A stretch of 34,957 nucleotides of DNA from a virus (taxonomy: Duplodnaviria; Heunggongvirae; Uroviricota; Caudoviricetes): IMG/VR virus record IMGVR_UViG_3300029085_000005, positions 1 to 34,957 of that record; one strand, written 5' to 3'. Both the position numbers and the translations under genes were made by a program. Each line of letters begins with the position of its first letter. Within the stretch, counting starts at the first letter, position 1. Below, piece by piece: positions 4,190 through 18,338 of the stretch. The notes under the pieces were generated by a model. It did not search any database. It worked only from the letters and a program-made list of their open reading frames with translations, and had not been told where the DNA came from.

Positions 4190-4765
4190 TATCGCGTCCT
4201 CAACAATGAATTTTGTGATGCAGTGCCTGGTGCCTCCAGGTGACGTTAACCAGTTAACAATTAACGCCGGGTTAGTTGATGCTCGTTACGCCAGTAAAAG
4301 ACCGCCTTACTGCTTTAACTGTTCCGCGTGCGCATAGCCGCATTCACCGCATCACAAAATTCACTTTAAAAAGGGCGGCAGAGCAGTCACGGAGTAAAAC
4401 TGATACCGCCAAACGTCACCAGAAAATTGATAACAGAGGGCGTTGCAGCGGGGTTGTCACTTAAGCGTATGGTCAACCTGACAACCCGGTGTCCTCAACG
4501 GGGAAGGAATAACCCCGTCATACTTACCGCCGCGCCATTTCGCGGAGTGTCACAACCGGAAGCGCACGGTCGACGAAAATTTAACGACAGGCTATCTATG
4601 AACCAGCTACCTCGCCGTGCGCTTTCGCGTTATGGTCTGACTTTTCATGGAAATATCCTTTCAGTAAACTGTCAGTGCCGGATTCTTATCCGTGTCCGGC
4701 GCACGCACTCTACCTCACCCGTGGAGAACTCCTTAATTACCAACCTTAGCTTCGTTGGTTATCTA

Positions 4766-4984
4766 TTAACGCGGGTATGTAATCATTCTGGCAATGCTTA
4801 ATGCCGCTGCTTTTTCCAGCCTGGTGATATCCTGCTCCAGAGCGGACAGATTTTCAGCCTGCTTAGCTCTGGCTTCATTAGCCCATTTCAGATCCTGCGC
4901 TGCATTAATTTTCTGGCGCATCCACTCATAAAGTTCATCATCGGTATAGTCTGGCGCGATGATGACGGGTTCTCGTTTCTGCAT
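4766..4984 (-). CDS. hypothetical protein (early-left operon)
   Basis: 72-aa ORF with a protein-like composition (MQKREPVIIAPDYTDDELYEWMRQKINAAQDLKWANEARAKQ...), co-oriented with recET. Confidence 0.45.
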   Translation of the reverse strand: MQKREPVIIAPDYTDDELYEWMRQKINAAQDLKWANEARAKQAENLSALEQDITRLEKAAALSIARMITYPR

Positions 4985-5013
4985 ACTGATTCCTCGCGGT
5001 GCTGTTTCGCTTA

Positions 5014-5124
5014 TCAGCCGTTAGATTTTGCCGAACTGGAAAGCGCCTGTTTAAATTCGTTGAAGCTGTGAGCTTCTTCGCCTTCGGCAAGGCCTTCGAA
5101 GTATTCTTCGTAAGCCTTTTCCAT
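5014..5124 (-). CDS. possible small acidic protein (about 36 aa)
   Basis: Hand translation MEKAYEEYFEGLAEGEEAHSFNEFKQALSSSAKSNG between the ORFs at 4766..4984 and 5144..5299; below the ORF-track cutoff, no clear RBS checked. Confidence 0.2.
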   Translation of the reverse strand: MEKAYEEYFEGLAEGEEAHSFNEFKQALSSSAKSNG

Positions 5125-5143
5125 GATTGTGTCAAAATCCATA

Positions 5144-5299
5144 TCACTCACCTGAGTTTCTTTCCAGCCAGCGACGGGCACCATTTTCGGTTTTAAACGT
5201 TTTGCTTTTTGTATACGTCATTGCGGTGAAGGTGCCGTCCTGGTTTGGAAACACGCCGTACACCAGAGATTCGTTGTTGCCAAGATCGATAGTATCCAT
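5144..5299 (-). CDS. YdaF-like small protein (about 51 aa)
   Basis: Internal Met of ORF 5144..5380 gives MDTIDLGNNESLVYGVFPNQDGTFTAMTYTKSKTFKTENGARRWLERNSGE, which I recall as the Rac YdaF/DUF1391-type small protein; GAGGT Shine-Dalgarno before this ATG. The longer start at 5380 is possible. Confidence 0.5.
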   Translation of the reverse strand: MDTIDLGNNESLVYGVFPNQDGTFTAMTYTKSKTFKTENGARRWLERNSGE

Positions 5300-5590
5300 G
5301 CTGACCTCATTTCCCCTTAACGCCGGGGTAGCGGAACAAAAACCTGCTGCATAGTTATTAAAGTTGAACCCTGCCGTCATGTTCTTACGCCTCGGGCTGG
5401 CTACTTAACCCCTGACCACTGCCTGGTAACTCGAAGTATTGTCCTGCATTCTGTAGGATGGGGTGAGGGAATGAATGAAGTTTAGAAAAACGAGCTTTCC
5501 AGGTCAATGTTTTTTATCAAAACATTTTAAGCAGGCAGCTGTTAAGCCATCACCACGATGGCATACAGTTAATCAAATAGATGAGGTTGG

Positions 5591-6184
5591 TTAAATATCT
5601 TGTTGAATTTTAAAGCATACGCCCAATATGCAAGATAGATCATCCAGCATAATTGAAGGGTAGCGAGGATTCGTGGGGACTAAAAGAATATCCGGCCCTT
5701 CTATCTCCAGTTTACGAATGACAGGTGTTGTGGTCCCTTTGGGTAAGGCAAGGACAATATTTCCTGGTTGTACGGTTCGATCGGGATCAACAAAAACTGT
5801 TGAACCATTTGGGATGGAAACTCCCCCACCAGATGTTGACATACTGTCACTCTCTAGAACAACTGCAAAGGTATTGACCGGGATTTCTCCGACAAGCTGC
5901 ACACAAGAGGTTATTGAGGAATTTTTCATAAGCTTGCTGCCTGCTGAAGTGATAGTAGCGGAACCGTTTTTATCGGCGGTAAAGATAGATCAAGCGAATC
6001 ACCTGTATTTAACTCTCCTCCATTAAGAAGCCAATTTTCGTTTACTTTCAATATTTTTGCCAGTGAACTTATGTAACGCGAGGACGGCGCTCCTCCACCG
6101 TTCATCCATTGACTTACGGAGCCTTTTGATGCGCCAGTGCCATTGACAAGGTCTTTGCCTTTCAGATATAGTTTGCTTGCTCAT
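5591..6184 (-). pseudogene. CI/LexA-type repressor (HTH_XRE + peptidase S24) split across reading frames
   Basis: ORF 5591..5929 encodes only an S24 domain (FAVVLESDSM...GNIVLALPKG...LVPTNPRYPSI...ILGVCFKI). Immediately upstream on the same strand but in another frame is an HTH domain with no start codon (...LKGKDLVNGTGASKGSVSQWMNGGGAPSS...LAKILKVNENWLLNGGE...), ending in a stop that overlaps the S24 ATG. The ATG at about 6184 opens a third short frame. The ORF track confirms that no 60-aa ORF covers the HTH segment. Confidence 0.6.
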
Positions 6185-9457: not shown

Positions 9458-9472
9458 TTGCCGGAGGCGCTT

Positions 9473-9898
9473 ATGGCAAAAGTATTTACACAAGAAGAGC
9501 GGGAAAAAATTAAAGGGCAGGTTGTTGAACTTGTACGTCTGAGCGGTCGCGAGACGTTGCGGCAACTGGAAGCCAAGACAGGTGCGACAAGATATCTGAT
9601 GAGTGTTCTCGCCAGAGAGCTGGTTGCCAGTGGCGATGTATACAACTCTGGTTACGGGTTATTCCCGTCTGAACAGGCGCGTAAGGACTGGCAAAATGCT
9701 CGCAAAAAACTCTCAAGGGCAAAGGTGAAGAAACCTGCAGTGGTTGATCCGGACCTTATCTGGTCGTTACCAGACGGCGAAATACGCCGCTACGACAGGC
9801 GCCTGAATATAATCTGTCGCGAGTGCCGGAAGAGCGAAGCTATGCAGCGTGTACTGGCATTTTATCAAGGAAATGTTAGGTATTTTAGACGTTACTAG
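9473..9898 (+). CDS. hypothetical protein (winged-helix-like)
   Basis: ORF 9458..9898 with probable ATG start at MAKVFTQEE...; contains TLRQLEAKTGATRYLMSVLARELVASGDV, similar in pattern to the preceding ORF. Confidence 0.4.
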   Translation: MAKVFTQEEREKIKGQVVELVRLSGRETLRQLEAKTGATRYLMSVLARELVASGDVYNSGYGLFPSEQARKDWQNARKKLSRAKVKKPAVVDPDLIWSLPDGEIRRYDRRLNIICRECRKSEAMQRVLAFYQGNVRYFRRY

Positions 9899-10051
9899 AT
9901 TAAAGAGCATTAGTTCAGATGTGAATTGACATTTTCATGGCGCAGGGTAGAGCCAGCGTGGTTGTCCGCTTTGCGTCAAAACCAGATATTACCAGATTTA
10001 GACATATATTCCCGATAGCCCTGCTCTGATGCTACACTCTGTGCTATTTTC

Positions 10052-10738
10052 ATGACCCCAATAAAAATATTTATGACTATTGCTGATTTCAAACGGCCTA
10101 AATTGGAGCTCCCAAACGGGGCAAACAAACTACTACTGCACTCTTGCTGTGCTCCATGTTCCGGTGAAGTGATGGAGGCGCTTCAGGCCTCGGGAATCGA
10201 CTACACCATCTTTTTCTACAACCCGAACATTCATCCTCAGAAAGAGTATTTAATTCGTAAGGATGAAAATATTCGCTTTGCTGAACAACACGGCGTGCCG
10301 TTTATCGATGCTGATTACGACACCGACAACTGGTTTGAACGTGCCAAAGGAATGGAATGGGAGCCTGAGAGGGGGATCCGTTGTACCATGTGTTTTGACA
10401 TGCGTTTTGAGCGGACAGCGTTGTACGCTGCTGAAAATGGTTTCAGTGTGATCAGCAGTTCACTGGGCATTTCACGCTGGAAAAATATGCAGCAGGTTAA
10501 CGAGTGTGGGCGGCGAGCTGTTGCGCATTATCCGGGTATGGTGTACTGGGATTATAACTGGCGCAAGCAGGGCGGCTCGTCCCGTATGATTGAAATCAGC
10601 AAGCGCGAAAAATTCTATCAGCAGGAATATTGTGGCTGTGTGTATTCTCTGCGCGATACCAATCTACACCGCAAATCTCAGGGACGCCCTCTTATCAAAA
10701 TTGGCCAACTCCACTACGGAAAAGAAGAGAAGGAGTGA
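10052..10738 (+). CDS. QueH-like (DUF208) putative epoxyqueuosine reductase
   Basis: 228-aa ORF with [11 protein letters not shown] near the N-terminus and EYCGCVYS near the C-terminus, the Cys pattern I associate with the DUF208/QueH family; flanked by intergenic regions with promoter-like hexamers (stand-alone moron). Confidence 0.55.
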
Positions 10739-10918
10739 TTTTATGGATCACCTTTCTGATTGATTTCATATTGGCGAGGTGACGTGAGTTAAGTAGAATG
10801 GCTGCGGGTGCTTGAGGCTATCTGTCTCAGGCATGAACACTGAAAGGCAGATAGAGAAAAGCCCCAGTTAACATTTCGCGTCCTGCAAGACGCTTAACAT
10901 TAATCTGAGGCCCAATCT

Positions 10919-11131
10919 ATGTCTCACAAATGTAGGTTAGCCTCTTACGTGCCGAAAGGCAAGGGGAAGCAGGCTATGAAGCAGCAAAAGGCGATGTTAA
11001 TCGCCCTGATCGTCATCTGTTTAACCGTCATAGTGACGGCACTGGTAACGAGGAAAGACCTCTGCGAGGTACGACTCCGAACCGGCCAGACGGAGGTCGC
11101 TGTCTTCACAGCTTACGAACCTGAGGAGTAA
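10919..11131 (+). CDS. mok-like overlapping reading frame of a hok/sok-type locus
   Basis: 70-aa ORF starting 57 nt upstream of, and in frame with, the Hok-like ORF, as mok does for hok. Confidence 0.4.
   Translation: MSHKCRLASYVPKGKGKQAMKQQKAMLIALIVICLTVIVTALVTRKDLCEVRLRTGQTEVAVFTAYEPEE
10976..11131 (+). CDS. hok: Hok/Gef-family type I toxin (51 aa)
   Basis: MKQQKAMLIALIVICLTVIVTALVTRKDLCEVRLRTGQTEVAVFTAYEPEE: N-terminal TM segment, the conserved RK.LCE.R motif and VAAF/VAVF..YE tail of Hok proteins. Confidence 0.75.
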   Translation: MKQQKAMLIALIVICLTVIVTALVTRKDLCEVRLRTGQTEVAVFTAYEPEE

Positions 11132-15505: not shown

Positions 15506-15581
15506 GGCCCTTTAGCTCAGTGGTGAGAGCGAGCGACTCATAATCGCCAGGTCGCTGGTTCAAATCCAGCAAGGGCCACCA
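15506..15581 (+). tRNA. tRNA-Ile2 (anticodon CAU, ileX/ileZ-like)
   Basis: ggccctttagctcagtggtgagagcgagcgactcataatcgcc...ggttcaaatccagcaagggccacca: perfect 7-bp acceptor stem, CAU anticodon in a 7-nt loop, T-loop TTCAAAT, CCA end. Closely resembles E. coli tRNA-Ile2 from memory; elongator Met is not formally excluded. Confidence 0.7.
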
Positions 15582-15588
15582 TCACATA

Positions 15589-15665
15589 CCGCCATTAGCT
15601 CATCAGGAAAGAGCGCCAGCCTTCGAAGCTGGTTGCGCGGAGTTCGGGTCCCCGAAGGCGGTCCA
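15589..15665 (+). tRNA. tRNA-like element, Arg(UCG)-type anticodon arm, degenerate acceptor and T arms
   Basis: Perfect anticodon stem ccagc/gctgg with loop cttcgaa (anticodon UCG), D-arm gctc...gagc and terminal CCA, but one A-A mismatch in the acceptor stem, one A-C mismatch in the T stem and a non-canonical T-loop ttcgggt. Coordinates approximate. Confidence 0.4.
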
Positions 15666-15678
15666 TTATCTGTATCCT

Positions 15679-15755
15679 GCGTTGTTAGCTCAGCCGGACA
15701 GAGCAATTGCCTTCTAAGCAATCGGTCACTGGTTCGAATCCAGTACAACGCGCCA
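15679..15755 (+). tRNA. tRNA-Arg (anticodon UCU, argU-like)
   Basis: gcgttgttagctcagccggacagagcaattgccttctaagcaatcggtcactggttcgaatccagtacaacgcgcca: perfect acceptor stem, loop cUUCUAa, canonical T-loop GTTCGAATC, CCA end. Confidence 0.75.
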
Positions 15756-15801: not shown

Positions 15802-16020
15802 CTCACAATTTAGGCGGTTGACTGTTGTCTGGTTTGCGGGGAGTTTGTTAAAAGAAACTGGCATGGTGAATCCCCCTGTGCGGAGGGGCAATCAGCGAGT
15901 AGGTATATGGGATAATCGCGGATTCAGGTGCTGGTACTGAATTCACCGGGAGGCACCCGGCACCATGCAATGGCACATAGCGCCACTCTCCAGCCCCTCT
16001 CCGGAGGGGCTTTTCTGTGC
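15802..16020 (+). repeat. structured non-coding module, copy A (promoter-like hexamers, two GC hairpins, terminal intrinsic terminator)
   Basis: Begins ctcacaatt; contains gttgactgttg, gcatggtgaatccccctgtgcggaggggc (hairpin), ctgaattcaccgggaggcacccggcaccatg (hairpin), and ends gcccctctccggaggggcttttctg. No credible ORF. Coordinates approximate. Confidence 0.5.
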
Positions 16021-16204
16021 CGGATACATCACAGTTTCTGGAACCTTAGGTACTACAGTATCAGTCAGGGTGCTATATTTTCAGATGTGATGAAAGCCTG
16101 TCAGCAGGCAGGGCGTATCGGAAATGACCCAGTAGAGAAAACGTTGACTCAGATACCGGTGCTGAGTTACCGGGAAACCGGCATCACATGACCGCTATCC
16201 TTCC

Positions 16205-16269: not shown

Positions 16270-16508
16270 CTCACAATTCAGTAAGTTGACAGTTGCCTGT
16301 CAGACTGGGCATTTGTTAAAAAAATTTCGCATGGTGAATCCCCCTGAGCGGAGGGGCGACTGGTGACGGTATAATCTCTGATTATCAAAACGAGAATGAC
16401 GCGGGTTTAGTGGCACCGGGCTGAACTCACCGGGAGGCACCCGGCACCATGTGCATGATGATACAGATACGCGGCTTTAGCCCCTCTCCGGAGGGGTTTT
16501 CTTGTGGG
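16270..16508 (+). repeat. structured non-coding module, copy B (paralogue of copy A)
   Basis: Begins ctcacaatt; TTGACA inside the palindrome tgacagttgcctgtca; gcatggtgaatccccctgagcggaggggc; consensus TATAAT (ggtgacggtataatc); ctgaactcaccgggaggcacccggcaccatg; ends gcccctctccggaggggttttcttg. Blocks collinear with copy A, variable sequence between them. Confidence 0.5.
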
Positions 16509-16731
16509 CAAAAAAAGCCCGCGCTGGGAGACGCGGGCGGCAAGGAATAAACAATAAAACGTGAAGTAATATTTCAGCTGGCGAATAATACCCCATAGTA
16601 ATCACTCTGCGCAACTGCGCGGTCTTTTTCGAATTGCGGGCTGTCGTCTCTCTTCTGCCATTGTCCTGTAACTTCCGGACTTCAGCCCGCTCCTTATTTT
16701 ACTCACAATATTATCCCGGCCGGGAGGATTC

Positions 16732-17443: not shown

Positions 17444-17447
17444 AGTG

Positions 17448-18338
17448 ATGAATAAAAAATATGAACTGGTTGTTAAGGGGATAAATAATTACGGGGATAA
17501 GGTTACTGTTACTGTGAAGCCGGAAGGTGACGGGCAAGCGTCGCTGTTGTTGCCAGATGTGGCGATTAGTCTTGACCGTACTGAAGGTGCCACGCTGGAG
17601 TTTTACGAAGCTGAGGCGAAAAAGCAGGCGAAGCAGTTTTTCATGGATGTTGCTGCCGGGTTATGTGAAGGGGATGGTCCGTTGCCGGAAAAGCGCCCCG
17701 TAATTTTAGAGGCGCAGGATGTGTTGATAACCTACAAAGGAAAGCTACCGGGAAGAATTACTTGTTCTCTGAAGATGCCGCCGTCAACACTGCGGTCAGA
17801 AAAAGATGATGTTGAATCACGTATTGAAAAACTGGAGAGCTACGTCGTTGAGCTGAATAAGAAATGGTCGATATTGGTGCCTTCTGGCGATGAAAAGCAG
17901 TTTGCTGCGTTTGACGATTATTGTCGGAAAGTGATGAGCAGAAATCTCGCAGAGTGTTTCAGTATTCATAATGATAATTTCAGTGACCCGGAATGGGAGT
18001 GTAACCGGCCATCCTTTGTTGTATCCGGTGATGCTGGGAAAATAACCATCTCAGAAAATGGGAAAGTAACACCTCCATCGCACCAGCACAGTGAGGAGCT
18101 CATTGAATTTGCCATTGATTACCTGAAGAACAATAAAAAGCAGGGGCTGATGAAGCGCGTTGGCCGTTGCATGGGATATCTGCAGGTAGCTGCTGAGATT
18201 GAAGCGCTGGCCAGTGGTGCTGATAAGGATGCAATTGTGCGGGAGGCTTTTCTTCGTGATTTTAATACTCCACCCTTTAAAAAAGTGCCGGCTTACTGGC
18301 TTCATCCGGGGCTGACTTATCTTAAAGTGCGTATTTAG
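17448..18338 (+). CDS. hypothetical 296-aa soluble protein inserted between holin and endolysin (unknown function)
   Basis: ORF 17445..18338 (GTG at 17445, ATG at 17448) starts a few nt after the holin stop and ends about 35 nt before the endolysin start. No TM segment, signal peptide or motif recognised; visibly AT-richer than the flanking genes. Confidence 0.55.
   Translation: MNKKYELVVKGINNYGDKVTVTVKPEGDGQASLLLPDVAISLDRTEGATLEFYEAEAKKQAKQFFMDVAAGLCEGDGPLPEKRPVILEAQDVLITYKGKLPGRITCSLKMPPSTLRSEKDDVESRIEKLESYVVELNKKWSILVPSGDEKQFAAFDDYCRKVMSRNLAECFSIHNDNFSDPEWECNRPSFVVSGDAGKITISENGKVTPPSHQHSEELIEFAIDYLKNNKKQGLMKRVGRCMGYLQVAAEIEALASGADKDAIVREAFLRDFNTPPFKKVPAYWLHPGLTYLKVRI

What the first reader, a model, noticed from the sequence alone, without database searches (positions are those of the whole stretch)
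10052..10738. QueH/DUF208-like gene carried as a stand-alone moron in the nin region
The ORF has the CCAPC and CGC.YS cysteine motifs I associate with the epoxyqueuosine reductase QueH family, a non-orthologous alternative to QueG. A phage-borne tRNA-modification enzyme in an enteric lambdoid element is unusual, and the same element also carries rare-codon tRNAs, suggesting a translation-tuning cargo set. It is flanked by intergenic regions on both sides.
Basis: partly seen in the sequence, partly recalled or inferred. Interest (0 to 1): 0.5.

Follow-up and report, generated by a model that had tools for sequence, protein, structure and literature searches.

The report
Prophage-carried epoxyqueuosine reductase QueH gene
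A lambda-like prophage carries an intact, strongly conserved copy of QueH, the vitamin-B12-independent enzyme for the last step of the tRNA base queuosine; about 18% of complete E. coli genomes have it alongside their own B12-dependent QueG, and databases already name it, so it is a real but modest finding.

Summary
The ORF is real and is a bona fide QueH. It matches Pfam PF02677 at E=1e-65 over the whole profile. All seven family-conserved cysteines are present, and the predicted fold matches the Thermotoga QueH crystal structures.

The true start is probably ATG 10073 (221 aa), not 10052.

The gene sits in a variable cargo slot of Rac/Qin-type lambdoid prophages, between the DUF977 gene and hok/sok. 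No other queuosine gene is in the element.

Its nearest relatives are chromosomal queH genes of Scandinavium, Kluyvera and Enterobacter (88-92% aa). A conserved extended -10 motif (TGCTACACT, 10030-10038) came along with it.

Prophage alleles are intact and under strong purifying selection (dN/dS about 0.04).

The gene is in 995 of 5426 complete E. coli genomes. All 5426 also have queG, so it is a redundant bypass that uses a different cofactor.

RefSeq already names this exact protein QueH. I found no paper that discusses the prophage copy.

The proposed link to the prophage tRNAs is not supported. None of them is a queuosine substrate, and the tRNA sets vary or are absent.

Expression in lysogens and enzyme activity are inferred, not shown.

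The parts
10073..10738 (+). queH coding sequence, probable true extent (221 aa + stop): epoxyqueuosine reductase QueH
   Evidence: Pfam PF02677 E=1.1e-65. ATG 10073 is invariant in chromosomal homologs and is the PGAP start. Seven conserved Cys are present. The fold matches 7lc7/7lc5 with target-normalised TM-score 0.85.
10052..10072 (+). In-frame upstream ATG plus 7 codons, as in the finding's coordinates; probably 5' UTR rather than coding
   Evidence: ATG 10052 is absent from the Scandinavium, Kluyvera and Enterobacter loci. It lies about 14 nt after the -10 hexamer. Both the 228-aa and the 221-aa calls exist in databases.
10030..10038 (+). Extended -10 promoter-like element TGCTACACT (hexamer TACACT at 10033-10038), 43 nt before ATG 10073
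   Evidence: It is invariant in an alignment of prophage and chromosomal loci whose remaining upstream DNA does not align. TGnTAnnnT occurs within 70 nt upstream in 26 of 84 queH loci, against 3.4% of random windows, and always at -42 to -45 in the closest relatives. It is a consensus match only; no transcript data.
9957..10029 (+). Left part of the queH cassette: non-coding DNA that travels with queH in prophages but is not found at chromosomal queH loci
   Evidence: Homology to phage HannyBb starts at 9957 although the upstream gene differs. Homology to the Scandinavium chromosome starts at 10023. The upstream intergenic region is present in 78 of 80 IMG/VR loci.
10145..10159 (+). CCAPC motif (Cys25, Cys26, Cys29 in 221-aa numbering)
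   Evidence: It aligns to T. maritima C9, C10 and D13. Deposited mutant structures exist for C9S (9d86) and D13N (9dco). Cys occupies the D13 column in 55 of 58 diverse family members.
10382..10393 (+). CxxC motif (Cys104, Cys107)
   Evidence: It aligns to T. maritima C87 and C90. These columns are Cys in 58/58 and 57/58 members.
10631..10639 (+). CGC motif (Cys187, Cys189)
   Evidence: It aligns to T. maritima C169 and C171. These columns are Cys in 52/58 and 55/58 members.
9458..9898 (+). Neighbour, not part of the cassette: DUF977 gene, the constant left flank of queH in prophages
   Evidence: Pfam DUF977 E=7e-28. It lies directly upstream in 71 of 75 IMG/VR loci, in all 10 distinct places, and in the divergent-allele loci L100-L102.
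10771..11131 (+). Neighbour: hok/sok type I toxin-antitoxin locus (promoter-like site 10771-10799, hok/sok RNA region 10806-10981, mok/hok ORF 10919-11131)
   Evidence: Rfam sok 120.5 bits. Promoter-like site. HOK_GEF gene calls in relatives. It lies within 800 bp downstream in 53 of 76 IMG/VR loci.
15506..15755 (+). Context only: three prophage tRNA genes (CAT, TCG, TCT anticodons); none is a queuosine substrate
   Evidence: ARAGORN. PGAP calls the CAT tRNA tRNA-Ile in near-identical DNA. The tRNA sets differ or are absent in other queH prophages.

Best explanation
This is a working copy of epoxyqueuosine reductase QueH carried as cargo by a lambdoid (Rac/Qin-type) prophage.

Shown here:
- It is a full-length member of the QueH family, with every family-conserved cysteine and the QueH fold.
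- It was acquired from a chromosomal queH of an Enterobacteriaceae relative, together with about 50 bp of upstream DNA that holds a conserved extended -10 element.
- It occupies a variable cargo slot after the DUF977 gene.
- It has stayed intact under strong purifying selection while diversifying among prophages.
- Every E. coli host already has the cobalamin-dependent QueG.

Inferred:
- The gene is transcribed from its own promoter in the lysogen, and also by read-through from the early rightward operon after induction.
- The protein assembles its iron-sulfur centre and reduces the epoxide of epoxyqueuosine (oQ34) to queuosine (Q34) in the host's tRNA-Asp, -Asn, -His and -Tyr without vitamin B12.

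E. coli cannot make B12 de novo and accumulates oQ when grown without it. The prophage would therefore uncouple completion of queuosine from B12 supply. That is a lysogenic-conversion trait benefiting host and prophage together.
For: Family membership:
- Pfam QueH 221.5 bits, E=1.1e-65.
- T. maritima QueH E=8e-22.
- 7 of 7 conserved Cys columns present, and 23 of 23 columns that are at least 90% conserved match the consensus.
- AlphaFold model with pLDDT 77.6; best PDB matches are all QueH, target-normalised TM-score 0.84-0.87.

Origin:
- Nearest relatives are Scandinavium 92%, Kluyvera 91% and Enterobacter 88-90% (aa identity), in non-phage chromosomal contexts.
- In Providencia and Erwinia the gene sits among core genes.
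- DNA homology to the Scandinavium locus spans 10023-10742.
- The TGCTACAyT motif at -43 is conserved.

Selection:
- Five prophage alleles are all intact.
- dN/dS is 0.03-0.046 with dS up to 0.44 among them.
- The exact protein is indexed in 25,425 blocks of the assembly collection.

Distribution: queH in 995 of 5426 complete E. coli genomes and queG in 5426 of 5426.

Slot variability: K-12 Qin has relBE/flxA/ydfV there. Other strains have a KwaB-like gene or a DUF1971 gene next to queH.

Cofactor logic from the literature:
- oQ34 is present in bacteria grown without B12 (PMC6850298, citing Frey 1988).
- The last step depends on cobalamin via QueG (PMC4646009).
- QueH is described as cobalamin-independent (PMC5615194, citing Zallot 2017).
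Against: - No transcript, protein or tRNA-nucleoside data exist for this gene in any source I could reach.
- No -35 element was recognised, and the consensus scan did not call a promoter upstream.
- There is no Shine-Dalgarno sequence before either ATG.
- No terminator follows the gene.
- Two prophage alleles (L100, L102) have a degraded -10 motif.
- No functional difference between oQ-tRNA and Q-tRNA in E. coli is established, so the benefit is a hypothesis.
- In rich or gut environments B12 may often be available, which would make the gene redundant.
- The ligand roles of individual cysteines rest on my memory of the structure paper (Li et al. 2021), which was not held.
Confidence: 0.75

Rival explanations
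1. The enzyme is active but serves the phage during lytic growth rather than the lysogen. It would be transcribed with the delayed-early genes. It would raise the Q/oQ ratio to improve translation of phage genes, or to steer the host's response to infection.
For: - The gene is on the same strand as the replication genes and Q, with no terminator between them, so early rightward transcription should read through it.
- A 2026 preprint reports that phage infection of Shewanella raises Q at the expense of oQ through queG induction, with effects on biofilm formation and resistance (10.64898/2026.03.05.709803).
- A free phage, HannyBb, carries the gene.
Against: - NAT/(NAT+NAC) in the prophage's early genes (0.54) and late genes (0.58) is close to a small host sample (0.53), so there is no codon-usage rationale.
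- The promoter-like element inherited from chromosomal queH suggests expression independent of the phage programme.
- This reading does not exclude the best explanation.
Confidence: 0.12
2. The gene is a neutral passenger. It hitch-hiked into a recombination-prone cargo slot next to the hok/sok addiction module and does nothing useful in E. coli.
For: - Every host has queG.
- The slot holds unrelated cargo in other prophages.
- A frameshifted variant exists (P0055, 4 contigs).
Against: - dN/dS is 0.03-0.046 among prophage alleles that differ by up to dS 0.44, the same constraint as between prophage and chromosomal copies.
- All five alleles examined are intact.
- The gene is present in 18% of complete genomes across unrelated lineages such as O157:H7, O104:H4, ST131 and APEC.
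- It was independently mobilised on IncF/IncR plasmids of Klebsiella and Salmonella.
Confidence: 0.05
3. The protein has been recruited for phage defence, superinfection exclusion or counter-defence, for example by changing the modification state of the tRNAs that anticodon nucleases target.
For: The slot after DUF977 also holds toxin-antitoxin and defence genes: hok/sok here, relBE in K-12 Qin, and a Kiwa KwaB-like gene in strain 7/2.
Against: - There is no match to any PADLOC defence model.
- The protein is 88-92% identical to chromosomal QueH of related Enterobacteriaceae and 84-86% identical to the core-context QueH of Providencia and Erwinia. It has no added domain and the same conserved residues, so nothing suggests a new function.
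Confidence: 0.05
4. It acts on something other than tRNA, such as a 7-deazaguanine base in phage DNA, as part of a DNA-modification system.
For: Phages do use queuosine-pathway enzymes to modify their DNA (PMC6884629).
Against: - The ORFs of this window that I scanned include no DpdA/TGT-like, FolE, QueC, QueD or QueE gene.
- The same paper found no QueA, QueG or QueH in the DNA-modifying viruses it analysed.
- No epoxy-deazaguanine DNA base is known (my own knowledge).
Confidence: 0.03

Closest known systems
Chromosomal QueH of Enterobacteriaceae (Scandinavium sp., Kluyvera ascorbata, Enterobacter spp.)
   Same: 88-92% amino-acid identity over the full length, the same N-terminus, the same seven cysteines, and the same extended -10 motif about 43 nt before the ATG.
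   Different: Those copies lie among ordinary metabolic and regulatory genes. This one lies in a prophage between DUF977 and hok/sok, and has about 70 bp of prophage-specific upstream DNA.
Thermotoga maritima QueH (PDB 7lc5, 7lc7, 9deu), the structurally characterised family member
   Same: Same fold (target-normalised TM-score 0.84-0.87, rmsd about 2.6 A). Six cysteines align exactly (C9, C10, C87, C90, C169, C171).
   Different: Only 30% identity. The T. maritima D13 position is Cys here, as in 55 of 58 diverse family members, so T. maritima is the exception. This protein also has a basic C-terminal tail of about 25 residues.
E. coli QueG (yjeS), the host's own epoxyqueuosine reductase
   Same: Same reaction, oQ34 to Q34 in tRNA (PMC5372724; PMC4646009).
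   Different: It is an unrelated protein that depends on cobalamin plus iron-sulfur clusters. It is chromosomal and universal in E. coli (5426 of 5426), whereas queH is accessory (995 of 5426).
Staphylococcus aureus, which encodes both QueG and QueH
   Same: Two redundant reductases with different cofactors in one cell. The authors interpret this as adjustment to cofactor availability (PMC13443448).
   Different: There both genes are chromosomal. Here the second enzyme arrives on a prophage or a plasmid.
Phage 7-deazaguanine DNA-modification gene sets (Hutinet et al. 2019)
   Same: Queuosine-pathway genes carried by phages.
   Different: Those sets contain FolE/QueD/QueE/QueC plus DpdA and modify DNA. 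The authors found no QueA, QueG or QueH in the viruses they analysed. This element has QueH alone.
Cargo genes (morons) of lambdoid prophages, such as relBE and hok/sok in K-12 Qin
   Same: Same kind of slot between the replication genes and Q. Presence varies among otherwise related prophages.
   Different: This cargo is a housekeeping-type tRNA-modification enzyme, not a toxin, defence or virulence gene. No terminator of its own was found.

Membership tests
QueH / DUF208 (Pfam PF02677), epoxyqueuosine reductase | Full-length match to the family profile above the curated threshold | tested here: met
   221.5 bits against a cut-off of 23.5, E=1.1e-65, profile positions 1-174 of 175.
QueH / DUF208 (Pfam PF02677), epoxyqueuosine reductase | Conserved cysteines (CCxxC, CxxC, CxC) that hold the metal centres | tested here: met
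   All seven columns that are Cys in 52-58 of 58 diverse representatives are Cys here. Six align to T. maritima C9, C10, C87, C90, C169 and C171, and the seventh to D13. Which residue binds which metal is from my memory of Li et al. 2021; that paper was not held.
QueH / DUF208 (Pfam PF02677), epoxyqueuosine reductase | QueH three-dimensional fold | tested here: met
   AlphaFold model with pLDDT 77.6 and pTM 0.79. The top five PDB matches are all T. maritima QueH, E down to 9e-13, target-normalised TM-score 0.84-0.87. The next matches are other nucleotide alpha-hydrolase-fold enzymes at E of 1e-5 or weaker.
QueH / DUF208 (Pfam PF02677), epoxyqueuosine reductase | Binds a [4Fe-4S] cluster and an adjacent iron | not testable with these tools
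   Needs purified protein and spectroscopy or crystallography.
QueH / DUF208 (Pfam PF02677), epoxyqueuosine reductase | Converts oQ-tRNA to Q-tRNA without cobalamin (complements a queG mutant) | not testable with these tools
   Reported for other family members (Zallot 2017, as cited in PMC5615194, and PMC5372724). Not tested for this protein.
Moron (independently expressed cargo gene of a temperate phage) | Present in some and absent from other closely related prophages at the same position | tested here: met
   The slot after DUF977 and before hokD holds queH here, relBE/ydfV/flxA in K-12 Qin, and queH plus KwaB-like or DUF1971 genes in other strains. 82% of complete E. coli genomes lack queH.
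Moron (independently expressed cargo gene of a temperate phage) | Foreign origin relative to the phage backbone | tested here: met
   The closest relatives are chromosomal genes of other Enterobacteriaceae. DNA homology is limited to 10023-10742.
Moron (independently expressed cargo gene of a temperate phage) | Own promoter | tested here: inconclusive
   A conserved extended -10 element TGCTACACT lies at 10030-10038. No -35 element was found, the consensus scan gave no call, and there are no transcript data.
Moron (independently expressed cargo gene of a temperate phage) | Own terminator | tested here: not met
   No terminator-like site lies between 10738 and the hok promoter-like site. Folding of 10730-10810 is not better than shuffles (z = -1.5).
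Moron (independently expressed cargo gene of a temperate phage) | Expressed in the lysogen | not testable with these tools
   Needs RNA-seq, proteomics or a reporter fusion.
Phage 7-deazaguanine DNA-modification system | DpdA/TGT-like transglycosylase and preQ0 synthesis genes in the same element | tested here: not met
   No such Pfam domain appears among the 20 flanking ORFs of the window that were scanned.
Riboswitch-controlled queuosine gene | preQ1 or cobalamin riboswitch in the leader | tested here: not met
   Rfam found nothing at gathering thresholds over the whole window, and nothing at E up to 1 over 9850-10900 apart from sok. The leader is unstructured (z = +0.9).

The most novel reading that the evidence does not exclude
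Prophage-borne and plasmid-borne queH could be a mobile 'cofactor bypass' spreading among queG-bearing enterobacteria (E. coli prophages; Klebsiella and Salmonella IncF/IncR plasmids). It would make the oQ-to-Q step independent of vitamin B12, so the tRNA modification state of about a fifth of E. coli strains would differ from the K-12 textbook picture under B12-poor conditions. The oQ-to-Q step was recently reported to be a regulated point during phage infection in Shewanella. [quoted passage not shown]
Probability: 0.35. Interest if true: 0.55.

Novelty: new member of a known kind. Interest (0 to 1): 0.35.

Why it matters
The enzyme family and its reaction are known, and RefSeq and UniRef already call this exact protein QueH, so the identification itself is not new.

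What appears undescribed is the setting. I could search only open-access PMC papers and bioRxiv, and the two key QueH papers were not readable. Within that limit, no paper mentions a housekeeping-type tRNA-modification enzyme kept under strong purifying selection on lambdoid prophages and on conjugative plasmids of bacteria that already have the B12-dependent enzyme.

If the gene is active, textbook statements based on K-12 would not hold for about 18% of E. coli, including O157:H7, O104:H4, ST131 and APEC strains. One such statement is that E. coli accumulates epoxyqueuosine without B12.

It would also be a clean example of a mobile element supplying a cofactor-independent bypass rather than a new pathway. 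The idea can be tested with one LC-MS experiment.

Tried and rejected
- Riboswitch control: Rfam found nothing but sok near the gene, both at gathering thresholds and at permissive E-values.
- Own terminator or structured leader: none found.
- Defence function: no PADLOC match for QueH or four neighbouring proteins.
- NCBIfam: no model matched, although PGAP names the protein QueH.
- Functional link to the prophage tRNAs: rejected, because the anticodons are not GUN and the tRNA sets vary or are absent.
- Codon-usage rationale: NAT share is 0.54-0.58 in phage genes against 0.53 in a small host sample, which is not informative.
- ATG 10052 as the start: rejected in favour of 10073.
- Literature: seven searches combining QueH, DUF208 or epoxyqueuosine with other terms, including prophage, phage and O157, found no paper on a prophage copy. 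Several hits were the surname 'Quehenberger'.
- Papers not held: Zallot 2017, Li 2021 and Miles 2011. Whether Zallot 2017 mentions E. coli prophage copies is therefore unknown.
- Not tested: whether genera with chromosomal queH lack queG.

Full report
**1. The observation**

The window has an ORF from ATG 10052 to the stop at 10736-10738 (228 aa).
- CCAPC at nt 10145-10159
- a CxxC at nt 10382-10393
- CGCVYS at nt 10631-10648

The match to Pfam PF02677 (QueH) is 221.5 bits, E=1.1e-65, over profile positions 1-174 of 175. The only solved structures it hits by sequence are T. maritima QueH entries (E=8e-22).

One correction concerns the start. ATG 10073 is invariant in an alignment with chromosomal loci, while ATG 10052 is not conserved. 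The N-termini of chromosomal homologs line up with 10073, and PGAP uses it. The gene is therefore most likely 10073-10738, 221 aa.

**2. Is it really a QueH?**

I aligned 58 full-length, diverse representatives (down to 37% identity) from a search of 1.84 billion cluster representatives.
- Seven columns are Cys in 52-58 of the 58 sequences, and all seven are Cys here.
- Six align to T. maritima C9, C10, C87, C90, C169 and C171. The seventh aligns to T. maritima D13.
- Cys occupies the D13 column in 55 of 58 sequences, so CCAPC is the family norm and the crystallised enzyme is the exception.
- C9S and D13N mutant structures have been deposited (9d86, 9dco), so these positions are ones that investigators considered important.
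- All 23 columns that are at least 90% conserved match the consensus in this protein.

An AlphaFold model (pLDDT 77.6, pTM 0.79) finds the five T. maritima QueH entries as its best PDB matches (target-normalised TM-score 0.84-0.87). Other nucleotide alpha-hydrolase-fold enzymes follow far behind.

The assignment of individual cysteines to the [4Fe-4S] cluster or the second iron rests on my memory of Li et al. 2021, which was not held.

**3. Surroundings**

The window is a fairly complete lambdoid prophage of the Rac/Qin type. Its gene order is:
- RecT and RecE
- DicF
- a repressor region
- a YdaT-like gene
- a replication initiator and a DnaC-like loader
- DUF1627
- DUF977
- queH
- hok/sok
- DUF968
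- RusA
- antiterminator Q
- a DNA methylase
- three tRNAs
- two STnc100 sRNA copies
- lysis genes
- terminase, portal, head and tail genes

So queH lies in the nin-equivalent region, on the strand of early rightward transcription. No other queuosine or 7-deazaguanine gene is among the ORFs scanned. No riboswitch or terminator flanks queH.

**4. Where it came from**
- The exact 221-aa protein is indexed in 25,425 blocks of the assembly collection.
- In ten distinct places it always follows DUF977, while the repressor, replication, Q and lysis modules around it differ.
- In 80 IMG/VR loci with the identical protein, DUF977 is directly upstream in 71 of 75 and hok/sok is within 800 bp downstream in 53 of 76.
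- The closest non-Escherichia relatives are Scandinavium (92%), Kluyvera ascorbata (91%) and Enterobacter (88-90%). The Scandinavium and Enterobacter quasihormaechei loci that I scanned lie among ordinary metabolic and regulatory genes.
- Providencia has the gene among core genes next to tmcA, and Erwinia has it between purL and glrK.
- DNA homology to the Scandinavium chromosome covers window 10023-10742, that is the gene plus about 50 bp upstream.
- Within those 50 bp, TGCTACACT (10030-10038) is invariant across prophage and chromosomal loci whose other upstream DNA does not align.
- The pattern TGnTAnnnT occurs upstream of 26 of 84 queH loci, against 3.4% of random windows. It sits at -42 to -45 in all the close relatives that have it.

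I read this as the native extended -10 promoter carried along at capture. That reading is an inference from a conserved motif, not a measured start site.

**5. Is it maintained?**

Alleles from five prophage contexts differ by up to 8% in DNA, and all are intact. The contexts are this window, phage HannyBb and E. coli strains TUM14759, STEC2018-607 and 7/2.

Nei-Gojobori estimates among them give dN/dS of 0.03-0.046 with dS up to 0.44. This is the same constraint as between prophage and chromosomal copies. A frameshifted variant exists but is rare (P0055, 4 contigs).

**6. Distribution and host background**
- queH DNA is in 995 of 5426 complete E. coli genomes, with one or two copies. Carriers include O157:H7, O104:H4, ST131 and APEC strains, and the gene is annotated 'epoxyqueuosine reductase QueH' in each of the 40 records sampled across the ranking.
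- queG is in all 5426, so the prophage gene is always a second reductase that uses a different cofactor.
- Among 50,697 deposited phage records, 25 have a homolog. Only Escherichia phage HannyBb is a convincing cultured phage with this gene, and there it is labelled hypothetical.
- Hutinet et al. 2019 stated that they found no QueA, QueG or QueH in the viruses they analysed.
- Homologs also sit on 305 plasmid records. These include Klebsiella IncFII/IncR plasmids (92% identity) and a Salmonella IncFII plasmid next to fecC/fecE (96%).

**7. How it most likely works**

From the literature:
- QueG needs cobalamin, and bacteria grown without B12 carry oQ34 instead of Q34 (PMC4646009; PMC6850298).
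- QueH is described as a cobalamin-independent, iron-dependent replacement (PMC5615194; PMC5372724; PMC13443448).
- That E. coli cannot make B12 de novo is my own knowledge.

The best-supported reading is that the prophage supplies a B12-independent route for the last step of queuosine synthesis in the host's tRNA-Asp, -Asn, -His and -Tyr.

What is shown: family membership, the conserved residues, the fold, the origin, the selection and the redundancy with queG. What is inferred: expression, activity in E. coli and any benefit.

Rivals:
- A role mainly in lytic growth is compatible with the gene's position, and with a 2026 preprint showing that the oQ-to-Q step is induced on phage infection of Shewanella. 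The prophage's NAT codon share does not differ from a host sample.
- A neutral-passenger reading is contradicted by the selection data.
- A defence role has only the neighbourhood in its favour and no model match.
- A DNA-modification role lacks the required partner genes.

**8. The tRNA idea**

The three prophage tRNAs have anticodons CAT, TCG and TCT. PGAP calls the CAT tRNA tRNA-Ile in a related E. coli prophage. None has the GUN anticodon that receives queuosine.

Other queH prophages carry CAT/Lys/Thr/Gly sets or no tRNA at all. The two cargos are independent.

**9. Novelty**

RefSeq (MULTISPECIES: epoxyqueuosine reductase QueH [Enterobacteriaceae]) and UniRef already name the exact protein. 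Older annotations call it hypothetical.

I found no paper in the searchable library that mentions a prophage queH. The two key QueH papers could not be read.

I rate it a new member of a known kind, of modest interest. It comes with a cheap decisive experiment: Q versus oQ by LC-MS in B12-free medium.

Noticed in passing
window 10172-10735 (internal ATG, residue 41 of the 228-aa ORF): PHROG 3217 ('unknown function') matches only residues 41-228 (E=1.9e-138). A 188-aa version starting at this internal Met is deposited as 'hypothetical protein' on 128 contigs, for example in E. coli JJ1886. These are N-terminally truncated gene calls that cut off the CCAPC motif, so the phage-protein database lists a QueH family as unknown.
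   Followed up: partly
L104 (Klebsiella pHNGS471-3, 4946-5614); L105 (Salmonella pCFSAN024441_02, 5001-5669): QueH homologs (92-96% identical) are on IncFII/IncR plasmids among IS elements. In Salmonella the gene is next to the iron-dicitrate genes fecC/fecE. In all, 305 plasmid records have a homolog, 99 of them from Klebsiella. The gene has therefore been mobilised more than once.
   Followed up: partly
L020-L098 (genome-contig hits): This QueH clade is 74-92% identical across Gamma-, Beta- and Alphaproteobacteria (Sphingomonas, Rhizobium, Neisseria, Stenotrophomonas), in differing gene contexts. That is unusually tight conservation for a tRNA-modification enzyme, or a sign of frequent horizontal transfer.
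   Followed up: no
L102 4875-6514 (E. coli strain 7/2); L103 9347-10738 (K-12 Qin): The slot after DUF977 and before hokD is a cargo hotspot. Strain 7/2 has a hypothetical gene plus a Kiwa KwaB-like gene right after queH. K-12 Qin has relBE, ydfV and flxA in the equivalent place.
   Followed up: partly
window 15832-16022 and 16300-16509 (+): Two copies of the sRNA family STnc100 (136 and 161 bits) lie just downstream of the three prophage tRNAs.
   Followed up: no
window 15506-15581 (+): ARAGORN calls this tRNA Met (anticodon CAT). PGAP annotates the corresponding tRNA of a related E. coli prophage as tRNA-Ile, that is a lysidine-type Ile tRNA.
   Followed up: no
window 5591-5929 (-): The repressor-position ORF is only 112 aa and has just the S24 peptidase domain with no helix-turn-helix. 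Related prophages have a 238-aa HTH+S24 protein there (L003), and one has the same 112-aa form (L004). It may be a truncated repressor.
   Followed up: no
window 17445-18338 (+): A 297-aa ORF whose DUF1327 domain covers only the first 100 residues or so. The equivalent gene in related prophages is 104-116 aa. It may be a fusion or a lost stop codon.
   Followed up: no
window 4373-4424 (-): DicF antisense sRNA (76.7 bits), as in K-12 Qin. It confirms the Qin/Rac-like early-left region.
   Followed up: no
L013-L015 3265-6645 (Providencia): The chromosomal queH of Providencia lies about 700 bp from tmcA, separated only by a small DUF441 gene. tmcA encodes another enzyme that modifies a tRNA wobble base.
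   Followed up: no
P0055 (229 aa; 4 contigs): A frameshifted queH variant that is identical up to residue 180 or so and then runs in another frame, matching the +1 ORF 10590-10763 of the window. Occasional pseudogenisation therefore occurs.
   Followed up: no
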